A stretch of 64,000 nt of DNA, from contig OZ024741.1 in assembly GCA_964016885.1 (NCBI GenBank), positions 238,266,001-238,330,000 on the forward strand, read 5' to 3'. The stretch comes from Eledone cirrhosa (taxonomy: Eukaryota). Below, one piece after another: positions 1 to 63,717 of this stretch (position 1 is the first letter of the stretch; each line of letters opens with the position of its first letter). The notes under the pieces were generated by a model that made no database searches, was not told the DNA's origin, and was given only the letters and a program-made list of their open reading frames with translations. Both the position numbers and the translations under genes were made by a program.

Positions 1-112
1 TATAGGTGTGAGGACTGTCTTCTTCATTGACATGATATGTAATGTCTACAGACACTATAACCGACTGTTGTAAATATAATAAACACACCAGGTAAATGAT
101 ATTTCCACTCAT
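1..112 (-). CDS. Protocadherin A, 5' end of large coding exon (runs off window)
   Basis: Translates MSGNIIYLVCLLYLQQSVIVSVDITYHVNEEDSPHTY, near-identical to the N-termini of B-D; splice acceptor ttatttctag (AG at 151-152) 38 nt upstream of the ATG. Confidence 0.93.
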   Translation of the reverse strand, partial: MSGNIIYLVCLLYLQQSVIVSVDITYHVNEEDSPHTY

Positions 113-1842
113 ATCTGTATTTCTTCATTACTCCTTAATATTGGACATTGCTAGAAATAAAATATGTAAAAATTACAAACACAAAAAAAATCAAATTGAA
201 TATATATTTGTAAGTGAAACTTGTTACAAACAACACAACTTTACTAAAAGATAAATTCTTGTAATATATAATAATGTCTAACATATTTAAATGTTCAATT
301 TATTCAAATTTTTCTAATTATTGTAAGCAATAAGCTTATATACCAGAATTTAGGTTAGAAGTAGAGGTTTACTCTCTGAGGTACATCTCTGGTGTAAATA
401 CATTTTCCTTAACGCTACATACTCTTCGTTACGATTTAGACTGACTTGGATTGGTTTTAAAATTTGCATATTCTAAGGAATTCATTGGTAGATATTTTGT
501 TTGATTTTCTTTGGAAAGTCAACCCAATATTTATTTTCTGGTAAAATGACAAAAAACAAGCATCTTTCCAAGAAACATGTTGGTGATTAACTTTGAACTC
601 CTGACCTAATCAGTACATCAGACGGATGGTTGAAACATGCAAGAAAGAGTTAAGAGAATTTTAAATATAAAGGGCAGTGTTCAAATATACATTGAGTTGT
701 TCTACCAATATCAGAAAAATAATATATGTGTTCAAGCTGCTTTCTGATATGATATATCAATATGGTGACACTGACTATTTATATATGCCAACCACCACCA
801 TGTTATACATATAGTATATAATTTCTTTATAGAGGGAAATGATTATCTCTAAACTGTCAGAAGTACTACTACTACTAGCACCACTACCACCACTACTACT
901 ACTAACAACTATAATAATGTAAATATCTTTCTTACAGATTAGACAACAACATAATTTTCTCTATAATCAACATTTATATTACAATATAATTTTCCATCCA
1001 AAGAGGAAAGGCATAAAGGCCACTGATGCACAATATTTAAAAAGAGAATGAATAAAAGAGTATTTAGGTCACAGAAATAATAGAGTGTTAAAGATTTAGT
1101 AATCAACTAAACTCTCACGAAATAATGTATTACTAGACAGAAGCTTCCAAAAGAATAAGACTCTTATATTATACAAGGAAACAAAAGTAAACATTTTTCA
1201 TGACTATTACAATAAAACCAAATATTGTAGAATTCCATGATTTCCACCATCTTGACTGTATAACACGACAAAGTTTCTAATATAATCAAATAGAAATTCA
1301 GATATTTTTGAAAATTTTGATACAATACAATTTGTTTGAATGTTGAATGTTAATAACTCATCAGAGAGTAATTGTAACAGAAATACTTCATTAGATACCT
1401 TTATTTATACTATTGGATATTGATATATATTTATTGAGACATACTACCAACAGTATAAACTAAAGTAGAATCATATGAAGATAAAATCTGATTAGACATT
1501 CTATATATAATAAAGTAGACCTTTATAATCAGACTGAGCCTTGTGAACTCCAACTGCTCTGTAAAATATTATTTTAAAATATTACTCCAGCTATTGTTGT
1601 TGTTTATAATGATAATAATGAAATTATTGTGTACAGTGCTCAGGTGCACTACACTGTAATGGTGGAAATGATTGCTAGATCACTCTAACCTCCACTATCC
1701 CAGTCCCTTATATAGAAATACACAACATGGTAGACATTTTAGATATTATACTTACTCTGTGATACTCTAAAAACACACACAATATGAATATAAATGTTAT
1801 AATGAATACAAAGAGATAAGAGAGAGAGAGAGAGAGATAGTG

Positions 1843-1881: not shown

Positions 1882-2220
1882 CTGCATTGTTTAATCCTGC
1901 ACTGTAGTTGTGTGTGATGGATGATGTGTATCCTGCTGTAGTATTCCAGTGTAACTGCTGCTACTGGCATGGTGGTGTTATGGTGTTACTGCTATTGTAG
2001 TAGCTTTCCAGTGTTACTACTACTATAGAAGTGTTCCAGTGTAATAACTGCTGCTGTTGTTGTGTTCTAGAGTAACTGCTGATGTGGTGGAAAATAGTGG
2101 CTGTGTGCAGTGGGAGGAGAGATATAAGCCAGATGGTGGTGGGGTGATAGTTACAACACTATGTTTTCCACACACACAATTGTGTGTATCAAGAACAAAG
2201 AAAAAAGCTATCAGCCTCAC
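1882..2220 (-). other. Upstream (5' leader) exon of PCDH A; 5' boundary approximate
   Basis: Donor aacaATGcag|gtatgt at 1880-1881; paralogous blocks at 12038, 22331 and 30373, each upstream of a PCDH exon. Confidence 0.7.
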
Positions 2221-4378: not shown

Positions 4379-4448
4379 GTTTCTGTTTATAAAAGCAGGC
4401 AAATTAAAGTGAAATGTATATATATATTTATTAAAGTATATTATTTAC

Positions 4449-6851
4449 CTGAGGAACTGGTGGAAGTCTCCTTTGTGTTGTTGAGAATTTCCACTCATCT
4501 GGTAGCTGTTCCATCTCTGGATAAAACTGACTTTTAGATTTTATTGTCTGGAGATTTCTGTTAAATATCTCTTCTGCATTTCTGGTTATTGCAACAGGAT
4601 TGTTGGTGTGATACAGTAATTGTCTCATCTCAGTTGGAGAGAGAAAGTTTGGATTATCTGCTGTTGTAGGTGAGTTATTGGTGTGATTAATACATCTGAA
4701 AACACACAGTGTTATTGACACTACAATAGCCACAGATATTATTACAGCTGCTGCTACAATGATAATTACCCAAGTCATATTGAGGTTGTTACCAGTCTGT
4801 AAGTGGACAGCATTCAACATTGGAGATGTATCATTACTAACAAACAGTGTTAGTATGATAACAGTTGTTGCTGATTGAACTGAAGTACCACCATCTTTCA
4901 CTATAAACTGTAGGTCATATGTTCCTGCATCATTTTGGTAAACTGCCCGAGAGAAAGATAAGACACCAGTGTGGGAGTTGACTGTAAACAGGTTTTTATC
5001 ATTAGATCTCTGTATTCCATATGTGAGGAAAGCATTGTTTCCAGTGTCTTTGTCAGAGGCTTTCAGAATTGTGATGTCTTTCTTACTGTGTGGATGGTAG
5101 TGGACATCTAGATTGTAAGGGTCATTAATAGGAAAGGTAAAATAGGGAGCATTATCATTTTTATCTAGAATCTCAATAACAATATTGGCAGTGTCATTCA
5201 GAGAAGGTGTTCCATTATCTTTGACTAAAACCTGGAATTTATAGATGTCTTTCACTTCCCGATCTATTGATTGTGATGTAGAAATGAATCCATATTTTGT
5301 AAGTTGGAAAGGAATGTTATCATTGTTGTTATCATTGATGATAGAATATGTAAGTTGACCTCCATCTTCAAGATCAGGGTCTGTAGCATTGATGAAGCCA
5401 ATAGGGAAGTCAACTTTCTGGTTTTCATAGGTGAGGAATTGGAATGTATCTTTGGTAAAATGTGGCTGTACATCATTGACATCAGTTACTTTGACAGAGA
5501 AATATTTCTTAGTTTCTAATTGAGGTGATCCCATGTCGTGACACACAATAGATACTTTATAGTGGTCCTTTATTTCTCTATCAAGATGTCCCTTAACAAT
5601 CATTTTATATTCTTTAGAATCTATTTTGGCAAGTTTAAAAGTATCATGTTTTAAATCACAGCTAACCTCACCATTAGGTCCAACATCAGTGTCAGTGACC
5701 ATAACATAAGCTATAAAACTATCTAGTTCACTGTCTTCTGAAATTGCTGTGGAACTTTCTGTTAAAGGTGACACAAAATTTATGTCTATTATAGGCTTAT
5801 TATTTTTATTGTTAAATACATTGATATATACAACTGCCATAGAAGTTAAAGGAGGTTTTCCTTTATCTTTAGCTTCAATATACAATTTAAAGGATTCTTT
5901 GTTATCAAAGTTAAAATTATTTTTAAAATAAACCATACCGTTTTCTCTGTTAATTCTAAAACTTTGTGATGTTGATACTGATGTTTTAGGGTGAATGTGG
6001 TAAAATATTTTCCCATTGTCTCCAGAATCTAAGTCTTTTGCTGACACTGTAACTATAGGATCATTTCTATTATGTTTTGAAAATAGAGTGATATTGTAAA
6101 TATTCTGTGTAAACACTGGCTTGTTGTCATTGAAATCTGTTACTGAAATTTTAATTTTTAAAATACCTTCTCTTGGTGGTGTACCTCCATCTTTGGCAAC
6201 AAGATTTAACATATAATCCTCTTTTTTCTCTCTATCTAAACTTCCTTCTAATATTATTTCAGGTGTTGATATGCCACCAAACTCTTCTAATACTCTAAAT
6301 GAAAATGGTTCATCAGCATCCTTTTGTAAATGGTATGTTATTTGAGAATTGAGGTGACTAACATCTTTGTCAATGGCATTTGGCATTCTTGTTGATGTTC
6401 CATCTTTGTCATTTTCATAAAATTGAATTTGGACCAAATTTTCAGGAAACTTTGGTGAATGGTCATTAATATCTTCTATAACTATTTTTATCTTCAATAT
6501 CTTTAAAAATAGTTTTGCTTTCCTCACTGCTACTTTAACAATTCTGGAACATTCCTTGTTATATGTACACAATGACTCAGCATCCAGTGTCTGTGTAGTG
6601 TATAGTTTTCCTGTGTTGGTGACATTGAATAAGTGAGAACCACTTGACACTGTCCTTTGTAGTTGTGTAAATGTAATGAGAGTGTGTTGTTGATGTGTGA
6701 GAGAGTGTGTTAAGTTAGAATCAACAGCAATGTCTCCTATATAGGTGTGAGGACTGTCTTCTTCATTGACATTGTATGTAATGTCAGCAGACACTATAAC
6801 AGACTGTTGTAAATATAGTAAATACACCAGGTAAATGATATTTCCACTCAT
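4449..6851 (-). CDS. Protocadherin B large exon (signal peptide, EC1-6, TM, proximal tail); spliced protein ~876 aa
   Basis: DxNDxxP, LDRE and AxDxGxP cadherin motifs; EC1 C-x5-C; hydrophobic TM; phase-0 donor cctcag|gtaaat after PQ. Confidence 0.97.
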
Positions 6852-7982
6852 GTTTGTAGTTCTTTATTACTCCTTGATATTGAATATTTCTACAAATAAA
6901 AAAATTTCATGTTATTGACAAAGAAAATAAAAATAAGCTAACTGATGTCAACATTCACTAAAACCAATCTAATTTCGTCAAGAAATTCTCATTTGTAGAG
7001 TGGATGTTGTATTTAAATTGTATTTTTAAAATGTTATTTTGCTGGAAATACATGACTAATAACAATTATAATGTATAACACTAGACCTATTAGACATAGG
7101 TATATGTTTTGTTCTATCTAGTAGGTAGAATGGAGAAATACTTCTGATTATATACCTTAAAGGCATGAAATGCTTAATAGTTTGACTGAATTGGTGCTGT
7201 ACAACTGAAACAACCTTACCTGAGTGTCTAATTTCTCAAAATTTAACTAGATATATGATGTTTTATGAAGCCAAACATGTAACTGTTTGAAGTTGTTGGG
7301 AGTAGATTAAAGTTCCTCATCATCATCGTTTAACGTCCATCTTCCCCGCTAGCATAGGTTCCCTTAACAAGTATCCTGAGGTTATTTTAACAATGTATAC
7401 ATCCACTGCCCTAATTTTAACATGTTAGACATTCTACGTGTGATTAAAGGGATATTTCTATGTTTATTAATCCTTTTTATATGAATGAACCACAAAGTAA
7501 TATCTGTGTTTAAGTAGACAGAAGTAATTGAAGTAATGTATATTTTGTCAAGTTGTATAAAAGTAAAGTCAGGTTTCTAGACATGATTTGAACTCATGAC
7601 TTCATCAACAGCAATGAAGGGGAACATATGTGAATATGGGAGAAGAGAATTCTAAATATAGAGGTTGATACATGTTATCCAATTCCACCAATATCACACA
7701 ATTAATATATTAGATGAGGTAATTCACACCACTCTGCTATTATTAACAACAAGCGTTATAAGGCCCCACCCTTCAGATTAGCCATGTAAGCACCATGACA
7801 TGCGGTATTTTCAGAGGAAATGTTTTACAACCAGATGTCCTTCCTAGCACAAACTCTTTTATTACCACTCACAGCACACTAAGTTATGGTGTACCTATCT
7901 TAAATCAGATACAAATATTATTTAAAATAACAATAAAAAAACAAACAAACAAAAACAAACTAGTTAATAATTAGTTAGCATA

Positions 7983-9003
7983 TAATAATAATAATAATAA
8001 TAATGAAATTATTGTGTACAGTGCTCAAGTGCACTACAACTCATCAAAGGTGCATGTATAGTACATAGAATAATATACAAATGTCAGGGAAGTGAATAGT
8101 GTATGAGTCATGATATACATGTGTGCGTGTGTGTAGAGGGGGGAATATTTGGTGTAGTGTTGGCGAATCTCAGGAAGCATGGAGGTTTTAACGGATGCAG
8201 TGTCTTGGCAGCTAATAACTGATGCAGGTAGTTTGTTCCATGCTTCAGCAACTCTGAGCGTGAAAAAATGTTTCCGAAAGTCATGGGAGCTGTGCTGTTT
8301 TCTGACTTTGTTGGCATGCCCACGTGTGTTAGACACATGGAAATCAAAAAAAGTACTCAGGGTTGTTGTTGGCAAGATGGTTAATAATTTTGTGGGTGTT
8401 TACCAAGTCAGTTGCCAGACGTTGGAGCTTCAATGTATCCATGCCCAGGGAAGCAAGGCGTTCAGACTATGGTAGATGCCTGATGGAGGGTTCTCGCTTG
8501 GTTGCACATCTCTGAACAGTTTCCAGGCGGTCAATGTTCTGAGCAAGATAGGGGTTCTAGACTGGTGATGCAAATTCTAAGTGTGGCCGCACCATAGCTA
8601 TATACAGCTTTAAATAAAACAGAGAGCGTCTGACAAAGGTCTTGCTGAGTGATGCCAAGACACCCTCAGGCTTCTTGACAATTTTAGAGACGTGCTTCGT
8701 CCAACGCAACTCGCTGCTGACAGTAATGCCCAGTCACATTCACAAGAAGTCTTCTTGATATTAGTGTTGTGGAGGGAATATGTGGACGCCGGGTTTTTAC
8801 TCCCAAAATGCATGGTGGTACACTTGTCCACAGCCAGCTTGAGTTGCCAGTCCGTGATCCATTGTTGCATTGTGTCCAGGTCAGATTGCAGGCAAGATCT
8901 ATAGTGTTCAGGATCTGTCCTTTTTATCTCAAGGTACAGCTTGATGTCATCTGCATATTTCAGTACTGTGGCATTCTTTAAGTTGGCATCTATGTCATTA
9001 ATA
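7983..9003 (-). mobile_element. 5'-truncated CR1-clade LINE
   Basis: RT motif INDID...KYADDIKLY; C-terminal TRGH...FFTLRVAEAWNKLP; simple-repeat tail; frameshifted. Confidence 0.9.
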
Positions 9004-10323
9004 TGATGAAAACAATTACAATATTTAATGTTGAAGGTTGAAGATATAATGATTTTCCATCCAACTATTTCATGAAAAATAAAATCTCTTTTCAAAATAT
9101 CTAAATAGTATTGAAGATTATTGGTGTAAGGGTAGCTATAGATTTAAAACTGAGTATTGTGATAAAGAAACTTTAAATTTCACTAAATTCAAAATACTGA
9201 GACCAGTATATGCCAGTATGTAAGACAACTGGCCTTAGAAGATATAACAGTATTTATCAAGACAGGGGTTAGCCTACTTTCAACCATCAACCTTGAAAAC
9301 AACTTATAGTACATTACAGGATTTCAGATTTGTATTTTATACCTTTAGTGTAAAATGGCCCTCCATTATGGGAGCAGAAATGATGGTAATTGAAAGTCAA
9401 ATGGTTGTCTTGTATGCTGGCATATACAAGATATATTCTAGTTCAACACTTATTAGTAGGGAAAACGGATGCTAAATGACGACAATGATGATAATGATGA
9501 TATGGTATATATTAATGCATGCCTTGTACTGTTCTTGAATGGAAACTTAATCAGTTGCCAGGTTTAACATGTACATATGGTCTTTAGGTATCTATAGCAG
9601 TGCCTACTCTATGGTATTAGGAAAAGGTCACCAGTTTGAGAAGTCCATGACATGTGGTTTCTTCCTTTCCCCCCACCAGTCTCAGTCACACTGCAAAGAA
9701 GGTCATAGCATTACACATCCAAAGATATGAAAACATTCCACTGAATAACTTTGGTGAAGCATGAAAGAATCATTGAAATGTTGAACCTTTTTTAGATTTT
9801 GAAGTAAAAGAAAGATATTTGAATATCTGTTGCGTAAACAAAGGCAAAGATTTATGTTTTCTATATTTATAATAAAGTCTATTTTTCCATGCTTAAATGG
9901 GTTACATCAGTTGTGAGGTTATGTGACCCATGCCTTGCTCACACGGATGTTTGTTGGCTTGGTTTCTACAGCTGGATGCCCTTCCTAATGCCAACCATGT
10001 AATATATATATATATATATAACAGAGTGTTGTAGTTTGCTTGAAGCATTGTTGAATAGGAAATATAAAAATCTGCCTTCCTAACAAATCATCTCTGATCA
10101 ATCCTTTAAGACACTTACAGGGGTACTCCCATGATAATGGGTTTTTAAACCCGAAAATATCTGGGATCATTAAATTTGCTACGGTAAGATTCTATTGTTA
10201 TCTTGGCAATTTTAATTTTCTAATGCATTGTATGGTTTTCAAAACTATTTATATTTATATATATACATCACCATCATCATCATCATTTTACGCTCGTTTT
10301 TCCTCTTCTTCCCCTATCCGAAC

Positions 10324-10359
10324 TTTCCTGATGAAGGACTTATGTCCGAAACGTTGAAA
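10324..10359 (+). ncRNA. Minimal type I hammerhead ribozyme motif (Penelope-like remnant)
   Basis: tttc-CTGATGA-a-ggac-ttat-gtcc-GAAA-cg-TT-gaaa: short stem I, 4-bp stem II, palindromic ACGT stem III. Confidence 0.6.
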
Positions 10360-10430
10360 TCTCCTCCACTTCCAAGTGTGAACCTAATATAACTGTGTAC
10401 AATCCTCCTGTGTTTTGTTCGTTCATTTCC

Positions 10431-10489
<59 letters not shown>

Positions 10490-10566
10490 TCAGGAATATA
10501 CCAGTTTTATACTAGACCCATTATTCAGAAGAGCACTCAATGCATGGGAAGTAGAGTGTAAAGATA

Positions 10567-10678
10567 GTAGAGAATCAGTGCCCAACAGCTGAGCTCTTGT
10601 AGTTTTGACAGAAAATTCCAGACCCTGGAATTCGGTGTTGAAATGGCAAGAGCTCAGCTGTTCGGCCCTGACTCTCTA

Positions 10679-10679
<1 letters not shown>
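10567..10679. mobile_element. Hairpin/MITE-like element between (TA)n tracts
   Basis: Arms include aacagctgagctcttg / caagagctcagctgtt and gtagaga / tctctac. Confidence 0.65.
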
Positions 10680-10712
<33 letters not shown>

Positions 10713-11514
10713 GAAATGAAATGATGAAATGATATAATCATCATCATAGTTTGATCATCAAAATAAACAAAATATTTAATCCTAGATATAAAACAATATT
10801 TCAATTGCATAAAAATGGTTTTATTGATGATATTCAATGTATTTCTATTGAATATCTTGCTACTTTATGGTCAGTCAGACATATATACAGTAATCTAATA
10901 AGAACAAATTACTGCTAAGCTGGCCAAGAAACAATAACTAACACAGATTTATTTTTATCACAAGTTAAACCCATAATAAGTGAACAACAGTATAAATTTT
11001 CTCTAGAACCGCTTTTTAAATTTCAATTTGATTATTGTTAAATGTGGAATGATATTTAATGACATTGAAGTTATTTATAAGTCATTTCAATGTACAAAAC
11101 CACATACACACACATGTATAGTAGATAATTATTATCACAGTAAGGAAAGAATATAAATAATAAACAAAAACATATTTAACTAATGAGGAATGCAGCACAC
11201 AGCTGTTCTTAAAAAAGAACAAATTAAAAAATGTATTCCTAGATAGATTACGTCCCAAGAAACAAAAACAAAACAGAAAGTAAAACATCATGGCCAGAGC
11301 TATACCTATGCTTAACGGTCTGCTAAATTATGGGTGATCTGAGGCCAAATAACAATAACAAAAGGCAAATTAACATCAAACTGTAAGTTATCAGAAAGCA
11401 ATATGTGTATCTTGAAACTAAATAATTATACAATGTTTAAGTGACACAATATCATTATAAGGTTTTTGAATTATACGATATATATTATATATTATATATT
11501 ATATACATTTACAC

Positions 11515-11518
11515 ATAC

Positions 11519-11597
<79 letters not shown>
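11515..11597. repeat. (TA)n microsatellite
   Basis: Direct reading; other (TA)n tracts at ~10433, 11909, 36607 and 63720. Confidence 0.95.
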
Positions 11598-11599
<2 letters not shown>

Positions 11600-11906
11600 C
11601 ATATTTATAATTGGATCAATGTGCTTATTGGGTGATTCTTGAAATAATTGTAATATTATAAATATTTCTGCAGCTGTTGTAATGGAGGCAGTCAAGTTAG
11701 ATCTCTCTAAACTCCATTGACCCAGACACTACAGAAACACACACACATATATGTGTGTGTGTGAATTGTGTATCGAAGTAGTTTTGATAAAATTGCGACA
11801 ATATTGTTAAAAAATGTTTAAATGATCTAAAATTCCAGAGAACGTGCATGAGGAAATACACTAGGATTTATTTCTTCATATGCAATGCCTAGGTTTTTAA
11901 GTCATT

Positions 11907-11953
<47 letters not shown>

Positions 11954-12037
11954 CATGAAAGACAGTTTAGAAATTATCTTACTCTATGTTTCACTGTAAA
12001 CAAGTATAATATAAATGAAAAGATGAGAGAGACTTAC

Positions 12038-12540
12038 CTTCATTGTTTAATCCTTCACTCTTGTAGTGTGTGATGGGTGATGTGTATCCTGCTATAGTGT
12101 TCCACTGTAACTGCTGCTACTGTAGTGATGTTCCAGTGTAACTTCTGCTACTGTAGTGGTCTTATAGTATACCTAATGGGGTAGTGATGTACTAGAATAA
12201 CTGCTGTTGTAGTGGTTCTCGAATGTTGGTGGTGAATTACAGTCCAACTGCTGCTGTAGTAGTGTTCCAGCATAATCTCAACTGCCGTAGTGCTCCACTC
12301 TAGGTTTAGCAGCTGCTGTAGTGGTGCTGTAGTGTAACTGCTACTTTAATAGTGTTCTTTCCTAGCTGCTGCTGTTGTAGGGATCCTGTATAACTGATGT
12401 TGTAGTAGTCTGACAGGAGTTTTATGTAGTGAGAGATGAGATGTTTAGCTAGATGGTGTTGGGGTGGTAGTTAGAACACTATGTCCTTCACACACACAAT
12501 AGTGTGTATCAGGAACAAAGAAAAAAGCTATCAGCCTCAC
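12038..12540 (-). other. Upstream (5' leader) exon of PCDH B; 5' boundary approximate
   Basis: Donor aacaATGaag|gtaagt; degenerate ~30-nt repeats; matching acceptor ttatttgtag (AG at 6890-6891). Confidence 0.72.
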
Positions 12541-16039: not shown

Positions 16040-18442
16040 CTGTGGAACTGGTGGAAGTCTCCTTTGTGTTGTTGAGAATTTCCACTCGTCTGGTAACTGT
16101 TCCATCTCTGGATAAAACTGACTTTTAGATTTTATTGTCTGAAGATTTCTAGCAAATATATCTTCTGCATTTCTAGTTATTGCAACAGGATTGTTAGTCT
16201 GATACAGTAATTGTCTCATCTCAGTCTGAGACAGAAAGTTTGGATTATCTGCTGTTGTAGGTGAGTTATTGGTGTGATTAATACATCTGAAAACACACAG
16301 TGTTATTGACACTACAATAGCCACAGATATTATTACAGCTGCTGCTACAATGATAATTACCCAAGTCATATTGAGGTTGTTACCAGTCTGTAAGTGGACA
16401 GCATTCAACATTGGAGATGTATCATTACTAACAAACAATGTTAGTATGATAACAGTTGTTGCTGATTGAACTGGAGTGCCACCATCTTTTACTATAAACT
16501 GTAGGTCATATGTTCCTGCATCATTTTGGTAAACTATCCGAGAGAAAGATAAGACACCAGTATGGGAGTTGACTGTAAACAAGTTTTTATCATTAGATCT
16601 CAGTATTCCATATGTGAGGAAAGCATTGTTTCCAGTGTCTTTGTCAGAGGCTTTCAGAATTGTGATGTCTTTCTTACTGTGTGGATGGTAGTGGACATCT
16701 AGATTGTAAGGGTCATTAATAGGAAAGGTAAAATAGGGAGCATTATCATTTTTATCTAGAATCTCAATAACAATATTGGCAGTGTCATTCAGAGAAGGTG
16801 TTCCATTATCTTTGACTAAAACCTGGAATTTATAGATGTCTTTCACTTCCCGATCTATTGATTGTGATGTAGAAATAAATCCATATTTTGTAAGTTGGAA
16901 AGGAATGTTATCATTGTTGTTATCATTGATGATAGAATATGTAAGTTGACCTCCATCTCCAAGATCAGGGTCTGTAGCATTGATGAAGCCAATAGGGAAG
17001 TCAACTTTCTGGTTTTCATAGGTGAGGAATTGGAATGTATCTTTGGTAAAATGTGGCTGTACATCATTGACATCAGTTACTTTGACAGAGAAATATTTCT
17101 TAGTCTTTAACTGAGGTGATCCCATGTCATGACATAGAATTGATACTTTATAGTGGTCCTTTATTTCTCTATCAAGATGTCCTTTAATAATCATCTTATA
17201 TTCCTTAGACTCTATTTTGGTAAGTTTAAATTTATCATGTTTTAAATCACAGCTAACCTCACCATTAGGTCCAACATCAGTGTCAGAGACTATAACATAA
17301 GCTATAAAACTACCAATTTTACTTGCTTCTGAAACTGCTGTGGAACTTTCTGTTAAAGGTGATACAAAATCTATATTTATCACTGGAGCATTATTCTGGT
17401 CATTAATTATGTGAATTCGAACTGTGGTTACAGAACGTAAGGAGGGACTTCCTTCATCCCGTGCTTCAATAAATAATTTGTAAGTTTGTTTCTCTCCAAA
17501 ACTAAAATTATCTTTTAAATATATTTCCCCCTTCGTTTGTTTCAATAAAAAATGTTTCTGGATATTTTGTGATGTTTTATGGTTGAAATGATAAGAAATC
17601 TTTCCATTGTTTCCAGAATCTAGATCTGTAGCTTTTAAAGTAAGAATTGGTAAATGTCTTTGTTGTGAATTATTTATAGATATGTTGTAGACTTTCTGTG
17701 AAAATACAGGTGTGTTATCATTAACATCTGCCACAGTTATATGTACCTTGAGGTCAGCTGTTTGGGGAGGGTTGCCTCTATCTTTAGCTTCAAGTGTCAA
17801 CATATATGAGTCTTTTTGTTCCCTGTCTAATTTTTCTTCTAAAGTTAATTCAGGTATGAAAACACCATCATGTCGTTTTGTCATATACAAAGAAAATGGG
17901 TCTCTTTCCTGTGTCATTATCTTATAAGTAATTTGTGAATTTATGATAGTAATATCTCTGTCTATGGCATACGGTATTATCTTTTTGGCTCCTTTAAAAC
18001 TGTCCTCAGCAAATCGAACAGTGATTTTATCAACAGAAAACTCCGGTGAATGATCATTGATGTCTTCTATTATTATTTTCACTTTTAAAATTTTCATAAA
18101 TGTTTCAGATTCCCTGACAGCTACTTTAACAATTCTGGAACATTCCTTGTTATATGTACACAGAGACTCAGCATCCAGTATCTGTGTTGTGTATAGTTTT
18201 CCTGTGTTGGTGACATTGAATAAGTTAGAACCACTTGACACTGTCCTTTGTAGTTGTGTAAATGTAATGAGAGTGTGTTGTTGATGTGTAAGAGAATGTG
18301 TTAAGTTAGAATCAACAGCGATGTCTCCTATATATGTGTAAGGACTGTCTTCTTCATTGACATGGTATGTAATGTCTACAGACACTATAACTGACTGTTG
18401 TAAATATAGTAAACACACCAGGTAAATAATATTTCCACTCAT
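16040..18442 (-). CDS. Protocadherin C large exon
   Basis: Six cadherin repeats plus TM; 2403 nt; donor ccacag|gtaaat; acceptor AG at 18481-18482. Confidence 0.97.
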
Positions 18443-19402
18443 GTCTGTAGGTCCTCATTACATCTTATGATTGGATATCTCTAAAAAGAGAATAACATTT
18501 ATGTTAAGACTAAAGACACCTTAGAGAATAATTAATTGCAATGTATAGTGTTGAAAATTATGAATATAGCTTATCAATAATGTTATTGTTAATAGCTAAA
18601 TAATAATAAATATAACCTAAAATCTGACAGAATAATTTTCAATCACAAGGTCTTGGGTTCTAACCCTACATTTGTCCAAGTAAATAGTTATTTTTTTAAA
18701 GTTACTCATATATTTAATCCTGTACTTAAGAAATAAATTATTCAAAAACCCTTCCATGTGCCAATAATCAACATAAACAATAGGGTTTCTCTTATGAAAA
18801 CCATTAATTTATCAAAATGTAATTTCCCAGTTTATGCGATTGTTCAATCATCCAATAATCCTGGATGCCCAAAAATAAATACATCCCATGCTATTGCTGT
18901 CATTATTGATGGTATGGCTCCACTAGTGTAAGGATGAACTGATGCACCAAGAAATATATAAAAATCAACTGATGCACAAAGAAATGTTAGTTTAAATTTG
19001 AACACAAAACCACATTAATTCGTTAAAGATAACATATTTGATAGGATGAAGATATGTATCATATCTAGAACTTTATAAAAAGTATGTGAACATGTATCCT
19101 AGTTTCACTCAATCTTAGACATGCTTGGCTTTTACATCTTGGTCCACTTTGTTAAGGTAGAAGTGACTCCCGAAGATTTAAAATGAAATATTCAATTCTA
19201 TTGTCATCTTTTAACTCTACTATCAACTGAAAAATCAAATTATATATTAAGGTTATTTTAAATACAAAAAAAATTTACATTTAGGTTTATTATTCTTTTG
19301 TGAAAATTTCTAACATCTTTTAGAGGTTACATTCAGTTTCAAAGAATTTGTTAAATCCAACAATCCTGCTTCAAACACATACACTAATAACAAATAATTC
19401 AG

Positions 19403-22330: not shown

Positions 22331-22772
22331 TTTCATTGTTTAATCCTTCAATGTAGCTGTGTGTGATGGATACTGTGTATCCTGCTGTAGTGTTCCACTG
22401 TAACTGCTGCTACTGTAGTGATGTTCCAGTAACTGCTGTAACTGCAATGGTGTTATTGTTGTATTCCAGTATAATTTCTCTCATAACTGGGTTCTAATGT
22501 TACTGCTCTTATAGTAATGCTTCACTGTAACTGATAAGGTAGTGATATTATAGTGTTAATGTAGTTATTGTTGTTCCAGTATAACTGATGATGTAGAAGT
22601 CATGTTTGAGTGTAAATGCTATTGTAGTGTTGTTGCAGTGTAACTGCTGATATAGCAGTAGTTTAACAGTAGCTGCATGTAGATGGTGATGTGTGATAGC
22701 TGCTGTTATATGTCTTCCACACACACACAAAATAGTGTGTATTATGAACAAAGAAAAAAGCTATCAGCCTCA
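22331..22772 (-). other. Upstream (5' leader) exon of PCDH C; 5' boundary approximate
   Basis: Donor aacaATGaaa|gtaagt; paralogous to the other leader exons. Confidence 0.7.
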
Positions 22773-25696: not shown

Positions 25697-25734
25697 CACC
25701 TTACTTGAATAAATACAATTTTATTAAAATTTAC

Positions 25735-28137
25735 CTGTGGAACTGGAGGAAGTCTCCTTTGTGTTGTTGAGAATTTCCACTCATCTGGTAACTGTTCCAT
25801 CTCTGGATAAAACTGACTTTTAGATTTTATTGTCTGGAGATTTCTAGCAAATATATCTTCTGCATTTCTGGTTATTGCAACAGGATTGTTAGTCTGATAC
25901 AGTAATTGTCTCATCTCAGTTTGAGACAGAAAGTTTGGATTATCTGCTGTTGTAGGTGAGTTATTGGTGTGATTAATACATCTGAAAACACACAGTGTTA
26001 TTGACACTACAATAGCCACAGATATTATTACAGCTGCTGCTACAATGATAATTACCCAAGTCATATTGAGGTCATTACCAGACTGTAAGTGGACAGCATT
26101 CAACATTGGAGATGTATCATTACTAACAAACAGTGTTAGTATGATAACAGTTGTTGCTGATTGAACTGGAGTACCACCATCTTTCACTATGAACTGTAGG
26201 TCGTATGTTCCTGCATCATTTTGGTAAACTGTCCGAGAGAAAGATAAGACACCAGTATGGGAGTTGACTGTAAACAGGTTTTTATCATTAGATCTCAGTA
26301 TTCCATATGTGAGGAAAGCATTGTTTCCAGTGTCTTTGTCAGAGGCTTTCAGAATTGTGATGTCTTTCTTACTGTGTGGATGGTAGTGGACATCTAGATT
26401 GTAAGGGTCATTAATAGGAAAGGTAAAATAGGGAGCATTATCATTTTTATCTAGAATCTCAATAACAATATTGGCAGTGTCATTCAGAGAAGGTGTTCCA
26501 TTATCTTTGACTAAAACCTGGAATTTATAGATGTCTTTTACTTCCCGATCTATTGATTGTGATGTAGAAATAAATCCATATTTTGTAAGTTGGAAAGGAA
26601 TGTTATCATTGTTGTTATCATTGATGATAGAATATGTAAGTTGACCTCCATCTCCAAGATCAGGGTCTGTAGCATTGATGAAGCCAATAGGGAAATCAAC
26701 TTTCTGGTTTTCATAGGTGAGGAATTGGAATGTATCTTTGGTAAAATGTGGCTGTACATCATTGACATCAGTTACTTTGACAGAGAAATATTTCTTAGTT
26801 TCTAGTTGAGGTGATCCCATGTCGTGACATACAATAGATACTTTATAGTGGTCCTTTATTTCTCTATCAAGATGTCCCTTAACAATCATTTTATATTCTT
26901 TAGAATCTATTTTGGCAAGTTTAAAAGTATCATGTTTTAAATCACAGCTAACCTCACCATTAGGTCCAACATCAGTGTCAGTGACCATAACATAAGCTAT
27001 AAAACTACCAATTTTACTTGTTTCTGAAACTGCTGTGGAACTTTCTGTTAAAGGTGACACAAAATTAATATCTATTATGGGCTTATTATTTTTATTGTTA
27101 AATACATTGATATATACAACTGCCATAGAAGTTAAAGGAGGTTTTCCTTTGTCTTTAACTTCAATATAAAGTTCAAAGGCTTCTTTTTTATCAAAGTTAA
27201 AATCATTTTTAAAATAAACCTTACCATTTTCTCTGTTAATTCTAAAACTTTGTGATGTTGATACTGATGTTTTAGGGTGAATGTGGTAAAATATTTTCCC
27301 ATTGTCTCCAGAATCTAAGTCTTTTGCTGACACTGTAACTATAGGATCATTTCTATTATGTTTTGAAAATAGAGTGATATTGTAAATATTCTGTGTAAAC
27401 ACTGGCTTGTTGTCATTGAAATCTGTTACTGAAATTTTGATTTTTAAAACACCTTCTCTTGGTGGTGTACCTCCATCTTTGGCAACAAGACTTAACATAT
27501 AATCCTCTTTTTTCTCTCTATCTAAACTTCCTTCTAATATTATTTCAGGTGTTGATATGCCACCAAACTCTTCTAATACTCTAAATGAAAATGGTTCATC
27601 AGCATCCTTTTGTAAATGGTATGTTATTTGAGAATTGAGGTGACTAACATCTTTGTCAATGGCATTTGGCATTCTTGTTGATGTTCCATCTTTGTCATTT
27701 TCATGAAATTGAATTTGGACCAAATTTTCAGGAAACTTTGGTGAATGGTCATTAATATCAGTTATTAATATTTTGATCTTCATTATCTTCATAAATATTT
27801 CCTCTTTCCTCACTGCTACTTTAACAATTCTGGAACATTCCTTGTTATATGTACACAGTGATTCAGCATCCAGTGTCTGTGTAGTGTATAGTTTTCCTGT
27901 GTTGCTGACATTGAATAAGTGAGAACCACTTGACACTGTCCTTTGTAGTTGTGTAAATGTAATGAGAGTGTGTTGTTGATGTGTAAGAGAGTTTGTTAAG
28001 TTAGAATCAACAGCAATGTCTCCTATATAGGTGTGAGGACTGTCTTCTTCATTGACATGGTAAGTAATGTCAGCAGACACTATAACAGACTGTTGTAGAT
28101 ATAGTAAATACACAAGGTAAATGATATTTCCACTCAT
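25735..28137 (-). CDS. Protocadherin D large exon
   Basis: Six cadherin repeats plus TM; 2403 nt; donor ccacag|gtaaat; acceptor AG at 28176-28177. Confidence 0.97.
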
Positions 28138-29047
28138 GTTTGTATTTTTTCATTACTCTTTAATATTGAATATCTCTACAAAAATAAAAAAGAAATGTGA
28201 ATATTACTGACACATGTGAACAAACAAAATAAAACTATGTAACTGATGGATGATTTCACTATTATGAAACTAGCTTGGTGAAGATATTCATTTTTAACTG
28301 AACCACCCTTTTCTGGGTGTTTAATTCCCTCTAATATAACTAGATGTGGAAAGGTGTTATGAAGGCAGAAATTTCAAGATTGATGCCAGTTGTTACGAGT
28401 AAATTAGAGTTATTACCCTTACAGAAATTCATGGGAGCTGGTGAAGCCCATCCCTCTACAGGTCTGAACACAGCTGATTTCTTCCAGAGAAAATAAGAGT
28501 GAGAAAGAAGTAACAAAAAAGAATTGATCTCAGTACTACACAGGTACTTTTTTATCAACCTCGAAAGGATGAAAGTTAATATCTACCAAAGCATTCTTCC
28601 CAACGTTCTAATGATTCTATCAATTTGCTGCTCCTATGAGAACCATACTTTACAAAAATGCTTACTTTCATTGTTCCAATTTAACATAAGTTGGAGATTT
28701 GTACACGTCATTCAAGATATTTTATTTGTATACATACATTCTATTTGAATTAAAGCCTTTATGTCACATAACTGTCTGGAATCATCGGAGTATACACAAT
28801 GTTTAAACAAGTAATTACATTCCTAATCTTTAGAACATTCATTAAGATACATTATTATTAACAGTGTCAGTGACATCATATTGAAAAACAAGAGTAATAA
28901 AATGATATTACAGTGAAAAGATAGCAAAATATTGGAAGCTGTTATAAACTATATACATATATATATAGTTTAGGGATTGTAATGTCAAGTTACTGTAGGT
29001 TCACCAAAGTCTCCAGTATGTATTTTGGGGTTGTACTAAGCAGAGTG

Positions 29048-29250
29048 TAATAATAATAATAATAACTGTTTCTACTTTTGGCACAAGGTCAGCAATTATC
29101 CCAGTGCATTACCGGTACTTTATTTTATCGACCCCGTAAGGATGAAAGGCAAAGTTAACCGTAGCGGGATTTGAACTCAGATCATAAAGGGAGGTAACTC
29201 TATGCTTCAAAGCATGGCGTCCGACCCTCTACCGGTACTGCCAATCCACC
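29048..29250 (-). mobile_element. Full-length tRNA-derived SINE
   Basis: Head ggtggattggcagtaccggtag, B-box gagttcaaatcc, core gcctttcatccttacggggtcgataaaataaagtacc, simple-repeat tail. Confidence 0.9.
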
Positions 29251-29324
29251 TAGTAATAATCAAAATTTCATTACATTTATTCAGGTGTCTAAATAAATAT
29301 AATGAAAATTTGACACCTCCACCA

Positions 29325-29490
29325 TATCGGTAGAGGGTCAGACGCCATGCTTTGCAGCATGGAGTTAACTCCTTTATGGCTTGAGTTCAAATCCTGCCAA
29401 GGTTAACTTTGCCTTTCATCCTTATGAGGTGGATAAAATAAAGTACTGGGATAATTGCTGGCCTTGTGCCTAAAGTAGAAACAATTATTA
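29325..29490 (+). mobile_element. SINE of the same family, inverted relative to 29048-29250
   Basis: Same B-box, core and tail on the + strand. Confidence 0.88.
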
Positions 29491-30372: not shown

Positions 30373-30795
30373 CAGCATTGTTCACTTCTCCACCGTAGTA
30401 GTATGTGATGGATGATGTGTATCCTGCTGTAGTGTTCCACTGTAACTGCTGCTATTGTAGTGGTGTTCCTGTGATACTGCTGCTACTGTAGTAGTGTTAT
30501 GGTGTTGGTGTTGGTGAAATGTTATTCTGGTTTAGTTGCTGCTTCAGAAATGTTCTAGTGTAAACTCCACAGTAGCTGTGTTACAGTCTAGCTGCTGGTG
30601 TATCATTGTTCCAGGGTTAGTACTGCAGCTGTAGTAGTGTGGCACTGCATTTGCCGATGTAGGAGTCTGACAGGGGGTGTATGTAATGGAAAGTGAGATG
30701 CTAGCCAGATGGTGGTGGGGTGATAGTTATAACACTGTCTTCCTCACACACAATAGTGTGTATCAGGAACAAAGAAAAAAGCTATCAGCCTCACT
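30373..30795 (-). other. Upstream (5' leader) exon of PCDH D; 5' boundary approximate
   Basis: Donor aacaATGctg|gtaagt. Confidence 0.7.
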
Positions 30796-30828
30796 TTGAA
30801 TATTGAAAAAAATGTTGCTTGTGTCATG
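30758..30828 (-). promoter_or_regulatory. Promoter-like block of PCDH D lacking the TATA/CCAAT segment
   Basis: Conserved core present, but tattgaaa is joined almost directly to aatgttgcttgtgtca. Confidence 0.55.
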
Positions 30829-59382: not shown

Positions 59383-61782
59383 CTGTGGAATTGGTGGAAG
59401 TTTTCTGCCTGTTGTTGCAAATGTCCACTCACTGGTAATTTTTTCCATTTCAGGGTAATAATGACTTTTTGATCTTACTGTTTGGCAATTTCTGTTATAT
59501 GTATTTTCTGTATTTCTTGTCATTGCAACAGGATTGTTGGTTTCATATTGCAGTTGCCTCTTTTGAGATTTTGACAAGATTTTGTGGTCATCTGAAGCTG
59601 AACATGTGCTTTTAATATGATTAATACATCTAAAAACACATAGTGTTAAGCACACAATAATAGCCACAGATACTATTACACCTGCTGCTACAATGATAAT
59701 TACCCAAGTTGTATTTAAGTTATTACCAGATAACAAATGGGCTGCAGCCTGCATTGGAAATGTTTCATTACTAACAAGCAATGTTAGTGTCACAGACGTT
59801 GTTGCTGACTGAACTGGAGTACCACTGTCTTTCACTATAAACTGTAGGTCATATGTTCCTGCATCATTTATATTAATTATACGAGAGAATGATAACACTC
59901 CAGTATAAGAATTGATTGTAAACATATTTTTATCATTAGATCTCAGTATTCCATATGTGAGGAAAGCATTGTTTCCAGTGTCTTTGTCAGAGGCTTTCAG
60001 AATTGTGATGTCTTTCTTACTGTGTAGATGGTAGTGGACATCTAGATTGTAAGGATCAGTATTAGGAAAGGTAAAATAGGGAGCATTATCATTTTTATCT
60101 AGAATCTCGATAACAATATTGGCAGTGTTATTCAGAGAGGGTGTTCCCTTATCTTTGACTAAAACCTGGAATTTATAGATGTCTTTCGCTTCCCGATCTA
60201 TTGATTTTGATGTAGAAATAAAACCATATTTTGTAAGTTGGAAAGGAATGTTATCATTGTTGTTATCATTGATGATAGAATATGTAATTTGACCTCCATC
60301 TCCAAGATCAGGGTCTGTAGCATTGATGAAGCCAATAGGGAAGTCAACTTTCTGGTTTTCATAAGTGAGGAATTGGAATGTATTTTTTGTAAATTGTGGT
60401 TGTACATCATTGACATCAAGTACCTCAATAGAAAATCGCTTTTCTGATTCAAGCTGTGGAAACCCCATATCTTGACAAATAAGTACAATGTCATATCGAT
60501 CTTGTGATTCCCTGTCAAGAGGATGTTTTGTTGTTATTTTATACTCATGTGAACCCATATTAGTTATTCCAAACATTTCATGTTCCAAATCACAATCAAT
60601 CTGTCCATTCTCTTCAATATCATTGTCAGTAATTATGACATAAGCAATAAAACTGCCCACTTTAATATCTTCTAAAAGAGCAGTTGAACTCTCTGTTAAA
60701 GGAAACACAAAGTCTATATCGATTTTTGGAGCAATATTGTGGCTGCTTTCTTTTGTAATTAAAATCACTGTTGTTGAACTTAAGGGAGGTTTTCCTCCAT
60801 CCTTAGCCTCAACAAATATTTTGTATGTTTTCTTATTATCTATTTTAAAGTATTCATTAACAAACAGTTCTCCAGATGCCTCTATTAATTCAAAATATTT
60901 TCTTATTTCAATGGATGTTTTGGGGCTGTAATTAAAGGTAATATTTCCATTTGCCTCAGAATCTAAATCTGTAGCTTTTAAAACTAAGATTGGTGTTGAT
61001 TTGGGGTGTTTATTCTTTATTGAAATATTATACATCTTTTGAGAAAATAAAGGTTTATTGTCATTAGAGTCAATAACAGATATTTGAAAAGGCAAAATAT
61101 TTTCATTTGGTGGTATACCATCATCTTTAGCAATCAGCTCTAGCATATACTGTTTCTTTCTTTCTCTGTCCAACTTACCTTGTAGAACTATTTCAGGTAT
61201 GAAAGTCCCATCATAGTCTTTGGAAAGGGACAACGAAAATGGATCATCTATATTTTCTTTCAGTTCATATGTTATCCTAGAATTATGAATACTAATATCT
61301 CTATCAATAGCATTTGGAATTGGTTTCTTAGTTCCTTCTCGATCATTTTCATCGAATTGTAAATTTACTTCATTATTTGGAAACTCAGGTGTGTGATCAT
61401 TGATGTCTTTTATAATTACTTTCACTTTTAATATCTTTACATAAGTTTTTCTTTTCCGAACTGCTATCCTAACAATTCTGGAACATTCCTTGTTATATGT
61501 ACACAGTGACTCAGCATCCAGTGTTTGTGTAGTGTATAGTTTTCCTGTGTTGGTGACATTGAATAAGTGAGAACCACTTGACACTGTCCTTTGTAGTTGT
61601 GTAAATGTAATGAGAGTGTGTTGTTGATGTGTAAGAGAGTGTGTTAAGTTGGAATCAACAGCAATGTCTCCTATATAGGTGTGAGGACTGTCTTCTTCAT
61701 TGATGTGGTATGTCATGTCCAAAGATACAATAGATGGCAGTAGTATGTCAAGTAAACATAAGGAGAGAATATTTCTGATCAT
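59383..61782 (-). CDS. Protocadherin F large exon; spliced protein ~880 aa
   Basis: Six cadherin repeats plus TM; donor ccacag|gttggc after PQ; acceptor cttttag (AG at 61828-61829). Confidence 0.96.
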
Positions 61783-63717
61783 TCTTAGTTTATCTCTAGA
61801 GTTCAGTATAACCTTTAAATTGGAGATCTAAAAGAAAGAAAAATGATAATTATTGGTTATCAATTAAATTAATATTAATCCATGTTTTTGTATCAAATAT
61901 TTTTTTTAGTTAGTTTCAAGTATTTGTAGTTATTTCTTTCTTGTTGCCTTCATTTTGAAATCATTTTTGTACACATCTTTCAACCTTATATTATTCTATA
62001 AAGACACTTGAATGCTAACAACATAGGGTATTGAGCACTCTTCAATAATACTAACAGCTTGACAACCTCTCTTGTACTGGTACCACAAAAGCATTCAGTA
62101 TACTCTAAAAAATGGTTGGTGTTAGGAAGGGCATCCAGCTATAGGAAACCTGCCAATTAGAGGGTCGCAAAGGCTCTTCAAGGATATGAAAATATCTCTA
62201 GTGCTGGTACAATGATAAAATATACCAGGTACACTCTGTAAAGTGGTTGGCATTAGGAAGAAAGTTCTGTTAAAATTGAATGTATCTGAGCAAGACCATA
62301 ACAATTTTATGTAAGATTATGATCTCATTTTTATCACCTAATCTATGCCATATATACATGCCATAATGCTTTTCAACAAAATATTTGTTGTTCCTAATCT
62401 CTCGTCTTTATCAGAAGTCATATTCTTAAGATGTAAATAGTGTTATTCAAATAAATTCTATTTTTAACCTATGTCAATCTGCTTTGCTTTTATTAGTCTT
62501 TGTCTATATTTTCCATATTTCACATATTATCATTTACATACTTGATATAGTTTGTATTTAAAATTGTAAATATATCTTTCAAAACTTTGAAGTTGCAAAA
62601 TGGAAGGATCATTAGTGTGTAGAACAAAGTTCCTTGTAGCATTTGTTCCAGATCTCTGCTGAGATCAACTTTGTCTTTCATTCTTTTGGGGCTGATAAAG
62701 TACTGTATCAGTTCATGTCTTATAGTATTTGTTGCTTGCTTGCATGGTAGACTTAATTTGTTGCCTGGTTTAACGCCATCACCTGGCCCTTGGGTGCCTT
62801 TAACAGAATCCATTCTGTTGCAAGCATTTAGGTCAGGTCTCCTTTTCTTTCACCAGTCTCAGGGCCCCTGGGAATGGTTATGGACCCTGCCCTTTCCACC
62901 TTGACTAAACAGTAAAATAAATAGACCGATTTAATGAAAGAAATAAGATATCTCAACTATTACTCTTATCATTGCAATACTGAAAACTTTTCTAACTATC
63001 AGCTTATTGCTTCCTTCTAAATGTAATATTTTCAATTAGTTTACTATATTAATAATATGCAATAACTTGCCTTGTTGTATATAGTTACATCACTTACCAC
63101 TTCATATTCTTATCTCATATCCAGCTGGGATTGAATTTACCTTTCATCCTTCAAGGTTCATTCAACTCAATCCATTCACAAAGTTTTTGTGTTTGTGAAA
63201 ACATGCAAATTTATTTAATTTTGTTGCTAATTATTATTTTTTTGAAGAAACTTTGTATTAAATTAATGTTAACTATTTTGTGGTTAATTATTGCTTGTTA
63301 TTTTTTTTATTTTTTTAAATTAATATTATGAGTAAAATGAAACATTTGATTTTTAAAATAAAACTTGTATAACTTAGTCTTATACTAGAAATTAATGAAC
63401 TTTGTTTAAAATATCACAAAAAATATCTTATAGAAATATAATTTCCTTATTTTCCAAGTACAAATAAATGTTTACTTATTATAAATAAAAGCTTATTTTA
63501 TTTTTAAAATACATTATACATCAATATTTATATAAATATTATTTGTATAAAATATATTCAAGCTTTACAAAAGGCATAGAACTATTTAGGTATGTCTGAG
63601 CAGTGTATATCTGGTGAGGCACAAACTAAATTTCTTACCAATCACTGATATTAAAGAAAGTTAAGGCTAAATACGTGCACACACACACTTTCTCTCTCTT
63701 TCCTGTTATAGTAGTTC

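What the first reader, a model, noticed from the sequence alone, without database searches (positions are those of the whole stretch)
6848..12043. Conserved intron-spanning 15-codon uORF whose stop overlaps the PCDH start codon (AUGA) in four paralogs
Seen: each leader exon of A-D ends aacaATG-NNN|gt (ATG at 1885-1887, 12041-12043, 22334-22336, 30376-30378), and each large exon begins exactly 38 nt before the main ATG. Splicing gives stop-free 15-codon frames ending in a TGA that overlaps the main ATG: A MQQCPILRSNEEIQI*, B MKKYSISRSNKELQT*, C MKRYPIIRCNEDLQT*, D MLRYSILKSNEKIQT*. Length and openness survive many substitutions in AT-rich DNA, the uATG has A at -3, and the frame of the main ORF carries a TAA in all four. 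Divergent gene F lacks the arrangement. Known: AUGA stop-start overlaps mediate termination-reinitiation in caliciviruses, and overlapping uORFs usually repress translation. Inference: a translational control layer or micropeptide family built into this PCDH cluster.
Basis: partly seen in the sequence, partly recalled or inferred. Interest (0 to 1): 0.85.

Follow-up and report, generated by a model that had tools for sequence, protein, structure and literature searches.

The report
Shared upstream ORF in octopus protocadherins
Dozens of tandem nerve-cell adhesion (protocadherin) genes in an octopus-type genome carry a short upstream reading frame, joined across a predicted intron, whose stop codon sits on the gene's own start codon in one subfamily; it likely turns down how much protein each copy makes rather than encoding a useful peptide.

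Summary
Of 27 close paralogs, 25 keep the upstream ATG, an open 14-15-codon frame and the AUGA overlap; the exceptions are a pseudogene that lost the ATG and an intact gene with a 4-nt deletion. A-D alone are not beyond chance (P 0.03-0.22); the intact clade is (joint P <0.001-0.005 on trees, 0.07 for stops alone by a conservative count). Two distant arrays (51-55% protein identity) keep the same ACAATG-NNN|GT exon end, but their frames stop 9-41 nt early; a third array lost it; 12 of 22 other genes of the same subcluster lost it or reduced it to start-stop. So the start codon is the old feature and the overlap belongs to one subfamily. The peptide shows no constraint (13 synonymous variants, 12.0 expected); no TURBS. 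Splicing and translation were not shown: the read test was inconclusive. Best reading: a sequence-independent repressive uORF; start-on-stop reinitiation stays open. Cellular precedents exist (SLAMF1, SHBG). My searches found no report for cephalopod protocadherins, and this scan had not noted it on other DNA.

The parts
12038..12043 (-). Gene B: last 6 nt of the leader exon = uORF codons 1-2 (ATG in ACA context), followed by GT donor
12044..12168 (-). Gene B: part of the leader exon alike between paralogs (5' end of the exon unknown); holds a ~31-nt repeated unit
   Evidence: blastn between leaders; tandem repeat 12098-12158
6890..12037 (-). Gene B: predicted 5'-UTR intron (5148 nt); no block shared with paralog introns other than the donor-proximal end and dispersed repeats
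   Evidence: junction not seen in RNA
6848..6889 (-). Gene B: uORF codons 3-15 and TGA (6850-6848) overlapping the main ATG (6851-6849)
4434..6851 (-). Gene B: large protocadherin exon (signal peptide, cadherin repeats, TM, start of tail)
   Evidence: Pfam PF00028, PF08266; homologs named protocadherin in Octopus and Argonauta
1882..1887 (-). Gene A: leader exon end with upstream ATG
109..150 (-). Gene A: exon-2 part of the uORF, TGA over main ATG (112-110); second out-of-frame ATG at 128-126
22331..22336 (-). Gene C: leader exon end with upstream ATG
18439..18480 (-). Gene C: exon-2 part of the uORF, TGA over main ATG (18442-18440); second out-of-frame ATG at 18458-18456
30373..30378 (-). Gene D: leader exon end with upstream ATG
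28134..28175 (-). Gene D: exon-2 part of the uORF, TGA over main ATG (28137-28135); second out-of-frame ATG at 28153-28151
61780..61827 (-). Gene F: 45-nt exon-2 segment, open in the main frame, and main ATG (61782-61780); its leader lies beyond the window

Best explanation
These protocadherin genes carry a conserved upstream ATG 6 nt before a predicted 5'-UTR splice donor, and it likely acts as a sequence-independent brake: most scanning ribosomes would start there, read 14-15 codons and stop on the main AUG, so that only a leaky or restarting minority would make the protein. Shown by sequence: the ATG, its A at -3, the open frame and the overlap in 25 of 27 close paralogs, and the same ATG in two distant arrays with earlier stops. 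Inferred: the junction, translation of the uORF, and repression. The overlap is read as this subfamily's version of a stop that falls at or before the main start, the geometry that leaves least room for ordinary reinitiation; the peptide is read as a by-product.
For: Upstream ATG without a variant in 26 intact close paralogs and lost in the one pseudogene, while the second ATG 16 nt before the start is absent from 8 of 27. Forward simulation, 26 intact genes: P(all keep ATG) 0.002-0.063, P(no premature stop) 0.009-0.10, joint <0.001-0.005; for 21 genes other than A-D and A's twin, joint <0.001-0.018. Same exon end in arrays c1 (20 of 21) and c3 (15 of 16), where only 35 of 117 fourfold sites are identical across the three groups. 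A pattern built on this exon end hits 68 places genome-wide, 62 in the protocadherin region; reversed control 7. The upstream ATG has A at -3 in the commonest contexts; the main ATG mostly G. Of 74 genes that keep this ATG, 72 stop at or before the main start. Conserved start with neutral coding part is the usual signature of regulatory uORFs (PMC7889888, passages).
Against: No RNA junction and no translation data. A count of distinct variants gives only P = 0.07 for no stop; tree-based values are inflated by gene conversion and ignore indels. Array c2 lacks this ATG in 21 of 21 (it has another one 68 nt upstream), and 12 of 22 other genes of the subcluster lost it or reduced it to start-stop. 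One intact gene has a 4-nt deletion that runs the frame 86 nt into the CDS. Leader exons are conserved beyond the ATG, so the ATG may ride on another constraint. A purely repressive role explains the ATG better than it explains the absence of early stops in the close clade.
Confidence: 0.45

Rival explanations
1. Coupled termination-reinitiation: the uORF carries ribosomes past the out-of-frame ATG at -14 to -16 and hands them to the main AUG at the overlap, so it would enable rather than only repress protocadherin synthesis.
For: Overlap in 25 of 27; exon-2 segments of 38 or 35 nt in 26 of 27, whereas lengths scatter over all phases in c1 and c2, where the frame stops early or the ATG is absent. 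An out-of-frame ATG with a long frame sits just before the start in 19 of 27 and 19 of 22 genes. In the other 22 genes, 16 still have a uORF of more than one codon ending within -5..+7 of the first in-frame ATG, 10 as exact AUGA, partly from an ATG inside exon 2. A singleton at 60% identity has one leader-like exon end 82 kb upstream that would give a 19-codon frame ending 4 nt into the CDS.
Against: No UGGGA in 0 of 27 and 0 of 20 leaders; the host 18S helix-26 loop lacks UCCCA; no pairing or folding signal (mean z -0.74 and -0.21). c1 and c3 do without the overlap. The 3-nt deletions lie in a triplet-like run, and in this frame any NNA-TGA makes an in-frame ATG by geometry alone. A review states that even a 1-nt overlap likely precludes ordinary reinitiation (PMC5972666 section 16).
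Confidence: 0.2
2. Inheritance without selection on translation: one ancestral leader happened to have this layout, and recent duplication plus gene conversion preserved it; the ACAATG may be kept for splicing or RNA binding.
For: A-D alone P 0.025-0.22; distinct-variant P 0.07; many of the 27 are near-identical; losses in c2 and in 12 of 22 neighbours; the three-way retention of ATG has a chance of about 0.03 (0.30 cubed, my arithmetic), and was picked after the fact. Earlier scan notes describe copying of leaders between neighbours (unchecked).
Against: The 38-nt segment changes faster than third codon positions of the CDS (tree length 2.36 against 1.05) yet never gains a stop; the ATG is invariant in intact genes and lost in the pseudogene; position -6 to -4 lies outside the usual donor consensus (own knowledge); uAUGs near a CDS are normally purged (PMC7889888, passages).
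Confidence: 0.25
3. The uORFs encode a family of functional micropeptides.
For: Tree length by codon position in the uORF frame is 2.58, 1.52, 3.38, a coding-like order, on 12-13 columns each.
Against: 13 synonymous of 48 distinct variants against 12.0 expected (P 0.42); length and sequence differ between subgroups and arrays.
Confidence: 0.04
4. The inferred junction is wrong (other acceptor, extra exon, or a start site downstream), so the frame does not exist in the mRNA.
For: No junction among the 15 joints listed (823 more not shown) when four runs were laid on gene D.
Against: One leader per gene in 48 of 49 subcluster genes analysed (two for F); GT at the same aligned place in at least 90% of each group; exon ends differ 12-23% between A-D, adjacent intron 25-59%; no shared block inside the introns of B, C, D.
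Confidence: 0.06

Closest known systems
Cellular short uORFs whose stop overlaps the main start: human SLAMF1 long isoform (29 codons, UGAUG; PMC5972666 section 16 read) and human SHBG TU-1A/1B (11 codons; PMC2973947 passages)
   Same: Short uORF, stop codon sharing bases with the main start, in a spliced 5' leader.
   Different: Single genes; SLAMF1 has a UGGGA-like motif, these leaders do not. Here the layout recurs in a tandem family of dozens of genes and the start codon is shared between arrays at 51-55% protein identity. I saw no passage on the effect of mutating the SHBG uORF.
Regulatory uORFs with conserved start and neutral coding part (PMC7889888 passages); TP53BP1 V3 uORF close to the main AUG (PMC10193022 passages)
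   Same: Start codon conserved, peptide not; stop close to the main start.
   Different: Not reported in cephalopod protocadherins in my searches; the uORF is split by an intron after codon 2.
Calicivirus and influenza B termination-reinitiation (TURBS; PMC5972666 section 13 part 1 read; PMC10275272 passages)
   Same: AUGA stop-start overlap.
   Different: Upstream frame is 15 codons, not a long ORF; no motif 1, no stem, and the host helix-26 loop has another sequence.
Coleoid protocadherin sub-arrays (PMC9068888 and PMC6339937, passages)
   Same: Head-to-tail arrays of whole multi-exon genes, homogenised by conversion.
   Different: The passages read say nothing on 5' leaders or translation; 'UTR', 'intron' and 'translation' occur 0 times in PMC6339937's main text.

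Membership tests
Octopod clustered protocadherin | Large exon with cadherin repeats, EC1 Cadherin_2 domain, tandem same-strand array | tested here: met
   Pfam; homologs; array
Regulatory uORF (sequence-independent) | AUG upstream of the main start in the mature mRNA | tested here: inconclusive
   Splice signals and conservation fit; no junction seen
Regulatory uORF (sequence-independent) | Start codon conserved more than its surroundings | tested here: met
   0 variants in 26 intact genes; P 0.002-0.063; shared with c1 and c3; but lost in c2 and 8 of 22 neighbours
Regulatory uORF (sequence-independent) | Translated, and changes output of the main ORF | not testable with these tools
   Needs ribosome profiling or reporters
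Conserved-peptide uORF / micropeptide | Purifying selection on the amino-acid sequence | tested here: not met
   13 synonymous against 12.0 expected of 48 variants
TURBS termination-reinitiation | Stop and start overlap or lie within about 14 nt | tested here: met
   25 of 27
TURBS termination-reinitiation | Motif 1 complementary to the 18S helix-26 loop, 40-90 nt upstream of the stop | tested here: not met
   UGGGA 0 of 27 and 0 of 20; host loop lacks UCCCA; three loop-complementary 5-mers 0 of 27 and 0 of 20, duplex mean z -0.74 and +0.73
TURBS termination-reinitiation | Motif 2/2* stem presenting motif 1 | tested here: not met
   104-nt folds no more stable than shuffles, mean z -0.21 and -0.24
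Coding first exon (N-terminal extension) | Leader ATG in frame and open into the CDS | tested here: not met
   Out of frame with TAA in A-D; in frame but closed by a stop in c3; possible only for F; no protein of 56 hits or of the printed cluster members starts with a leader-encoded extension of this kind

The most novel reading that the evidence does not exclude
Octopod protocadherins have an old, family-wide translational control layer: a strong upstream AUG two codons before a 5'-UTR intron, held in the -1 frame across much of the family (24 of 40 divergent genes have that phase), and in one subfamily tuned so that ribosomes skip a decoy AUG and restart on the overlapping main AUG without any TURBS, setting the dose of each surface tag.
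Probability: 0.17. Interest if true: 0.82.

Novelty: new variant of a known kind. Interest (0 to 1): 0.52.

Why it matters
How cephalopods regulate 150-300 whole-gene protocadherin copies is open; the papers read deal with gene number, arrays and expression only. A uORF shared by three arrays would add dose control at translation, and the subcluster is a natural allelic series (overlap, early stop, start-stop, lost ATG, frameshift, in-frame) that lets the effect of stop-start spacing be tested on near-identical mRNAs. It also warns annotators: one public O. sinensis model starts at the out-of-frame ATG.

Tried and rejected
RNA junction: 12 runs listed, 1 on record as RNA at 5% share. Four runs laid on gene D (27000-30950) were swamped by a dispersed repeat in the intron; two runs only guessed to be RNA had contigs on the leader end and the large exon, stopping at different places near the donor; no verdict. 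Genes A-C were not examined in reads. My first reading that array c2 kept the same ATG was wrong: alignment shows it is another ATG 68 nt upstream. TURBS and host-adapted TURBS rejected. Micropeptide rejected. Alternative acceptors that would put the ATG in frame: the main frame is closed by stops in A-D. Extra shared exon in the intron: none for B, C, D. Leaders of divergent singletons: a profile of all leaders found a convincing hit for 1 of 15 long stretches and a few c1/c2-like ones, so their ATG state is unknown. ATG depletion in leaders was mixed (1.7 vs 3.0 expected in the close clade, 4.9 vs 3.6 in the distal genes). Among the 24 phase-2 singletons no frame is open more often than in shuffles (10, 10, 12 against 8.9, 9.0, 8.5), so the phase bias does not show living overlap uORFs there. 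No ancestral states were inferred, so numbers of independent losses are not counted. Literature searches without a relevant hit: protocadherin+octopus+untranslated, protocadherin+uORF (22), protocadherin+cephalopod+exon+promoter (31), octopus+ribosome profiling+upstream open reading (45), protocadherin+intron phase (72, 0 papers), uORF+paralogs+gene cluster (74); listings only. Most subscription papers are not in the library; the one supplement of PMC6339937 was listed, not read, and supplements of PMC9068888 and PMC9699675 (long-read isoforms) were not opened and may bear on the junctions.
Full report
Setting. The window holds five protocadherin genes on the minus strand; their closest named homologs are Octopus and Argonauta protocadherins. 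It lies at G000:C2:238266001-238330000 inside a subcluster of about 52 genes at 73-100% identity over 238.02-238.59 Mb, with further arrays nearby. I fetched the whole subcluster, 170-200 kb of each of three other arrays (c1 at 239.4, c2 at 240.0, c3 at 252.4 Mb) and stretches at divergent single genes.

Observation. Every coordinate and frame given for A-D is right.

Is the leader an exon? A profile of the four leader ends finds one copy upstream of almost every gene. Of 51 genes tabulated, 2 had no clear acceptor and were dropped; 48 of the other 49 have one leader, F two. GT follows at the same aligned place in at least 90% of each group, and divergence jumps from 12-23% in the exon end to 25-59% in adjacent intron among A-D. 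The introns of B, C and D share no inner block but repeats. Direct proof is missing: the read test on D was uninformative.

The close clade. In the 27 genes from 238.04 to 238.30 Mb, 25 have ATG, open frame and AUGA; 22 exon-2 segments are 38 nt, 4 are 35 nt, 1 is 34 nt. The gene without the ATG has a stop at codon 42 and is a pseudogene; the 34-nt gene has an intact 809-codon exon and a frame that runs into the CDS. The 38-nt segment is not slow: tree length 2.36 per site against 1.43 for the leader end and 1.05 for third positions of the first 49 codons. Forward simulation without indels, from existing sequences, with each of these three sets of branch lengths gives for 26 intact genes P(no new stop) 0.009, 0.043, 0.10; P(all keep ATG) 0.002, 0.015, 0.063; joint <0.001, 0.001, 0.005. 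For 21 genes other than A-D and A's twin the joint values are <0.001, 0.006, 0.018; for A-D alone 0.025, 0.13, 0.22. Gene conversion repeats variants across branches and makes these too small; counting each variant once gives 48 variants, 2.6 stops expected, none seen, P 0.07. The same count shows 13 synonymous variants against 12.0 expected: no peptide constraint, although codon-position rates have a coding-like order (2.58, 1.52, 3.38). An internal contrast: the upstream ATG has no variant in the 26 intact genes, the -16 ATG is missing from 8 of 27.

The rest of the subcluster tells against a strict rule. Of 22 genes, 4 have AUGA from the leader ATG, 1 a UAAUG overlap, 4 an earlier stop, 4 a start-stop, 8 no ATG, and F is counted in frame. 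Yet, taking the first in-frame ATG as start and counting ATGs inside exon 2, 16 of 22 still have a frame of more than one codon ending within -5..+7, 10 as AUGA. These are related genes, not independent gains, and two of the overlaps arise by geometry, since a new TGA after an A in this frame creates an in-frame ATG. Public models of Octopus orthologs of this group start with short extensions that resemble the out-of-frame reading here (P0024, P0025, P0026), which suggests the geometry shifts between species (inference from protein only).

Distant arrays. c1 (55% protein identity) has the ATG in 20 of 21 leaders and c3 (51%) in 15 of 16, in the same ACA context 6 nt (two genes 5 nt) before the donor; all these frames stop early, 14-41 nt before the start in c1 and 9 nt before it, in frame, in c3. 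c2 lacks it in 21 of 21 and has a different ATG with a 13-18-codon frame inside the leader. Fourfold sites are identical across the close clade, c1 and c3 at 35 of 117. A pattern for this exon end matches 68 places in the genome, 62 in the protocadherin region, against 7 for the reversed control; the pattern was built from these arrays, so it shows specificity, not discovery. Thus the start codon is old, the overlap local. Of 74 genes with the ATG, 72 end the frame at or before the main start.

An unexplained wider pattern. In divergent single genes the acceptor-to-ATG distance (26-97 nt) has the same phase as in A-D in 14 of 21 (first set; 3 of 24 parsed genes left out, one a c2 member, two without a visible acceptor) and 10 of 19 (second set, chosen by search rank, 1 of 20 not parsed): P 0.002 and 0.065, together 24 of 40, P 0.0005 if independent. 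Acceptors were called by score, and two calls differ between methods. No frame is unusually open in these 24, and their leaders were mostly not found, so this may be an old uORF geometry or a relic of a coding intron.

Mechanism. With A at -3, the upstream AUG should capture much of the scanning traffic (general rule, PMC7889888 passages; the octopod consensus was not measured). After 15 codons the ribosome stops on the main AUG with no room to reload initiator tRNA, which a review holds likely to preclude ordinary reinitiation (PMC5972666 section 16). I therefore commit to a brake on protein dose (0.45). Hand-over at the overlap (0.2) would better explain why early stops are absent where a decoy ATG sits just upstream of the start, but the viral helper elements are missing: no UGGGA in these leaders, no stable fold, and the host 18S helix-26 loop lacks UCCCA. 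Neutral inheritance (0.25) cannot be excluded.

Known and new. Short cellular uORFs whose stop overlaps the main start are known (SLAMF1; SHBG). Six searches found no report for cephalopod protocadherins (listings only), and earlier notes of this scan cover the non-coding first exon and gene conversion in neighbouring arrays but not the uORF. Verdict: real, wider than reported, a new variant of a known kind, with splicing, translation and effect untested. Interest 0.52.

Noticed in passing
L161-L240 and L091-L098 (divergent protocadherin genes on C2 and C7): Acceptor-to-ATG distance is 2 mod 3 in 24 of 40 divergent genes; in the 10 genes with 1 mod 3 the main frame is open back to the acceptor in 8 (2.6 expected from shuffles), which may mark upstream coding exons.
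   Followed up: partly
L159, L160 (18S rRNA, about 1773-1830 of the gene): The 18S gene is about 2.87 kb and its helix-26 loop region lacks the UCCCA that TURBS elements pair with in mammals.
   Followed up: partly
c1 leaders, L099-L118: TGGGA lies within 100 nt of the main ATG in 11 of 21 c1 genes, and a second conserved 15-codon uORF lies about 100 nt before the donor; neither goes with a stop-start overlap.
   Followed up: no
window 33048-33188: A 47-codon remnant of a deleted protocadherin gene (81% to B) lies 2.7 kb upstream of D's leader donor, in a 29-kb gap without a gene.
   Followed up: no
window 12098-12158, 22390-22454, 30429-30498: The leader exons are built partly from a repeated unit of 29-31 nt; a related block is recognisable in the distal genes, c1 and c2.
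   Followed up: no
L162 (238.986 Mb) and L095 (238.904 Mb): A well-preserved leader-exon end lies 82 kb upstream of a single protocadherin gene with no other such gene between; if joined, its frame runs 19 codons and ends 4 nt inside the CDS.
   Followed up: partly
window 54428-56089 (minus): 554-codon open frame with a reverse transcriptase domain and, after it, a PHD-finger match; LINE-type fragments also at 8613-9143, 34128-34592 and 51069-51677. A 257-codon frame at 37725-38495 has no Pfam match.
   Followed up: no
window 4434-6851, 15980-18442, 25699-28137: B is 96% identical to D but 80% to the gene between them, C, although all share the same N-terminus: patchy conversion.
   Followed up: no
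P0034: A public O. sinensis protocadherin model starts at the out-of-frame ATG just before the true start, showing that this stretch is kept in that species and that the model is probably mis-started.
   Followed up: no
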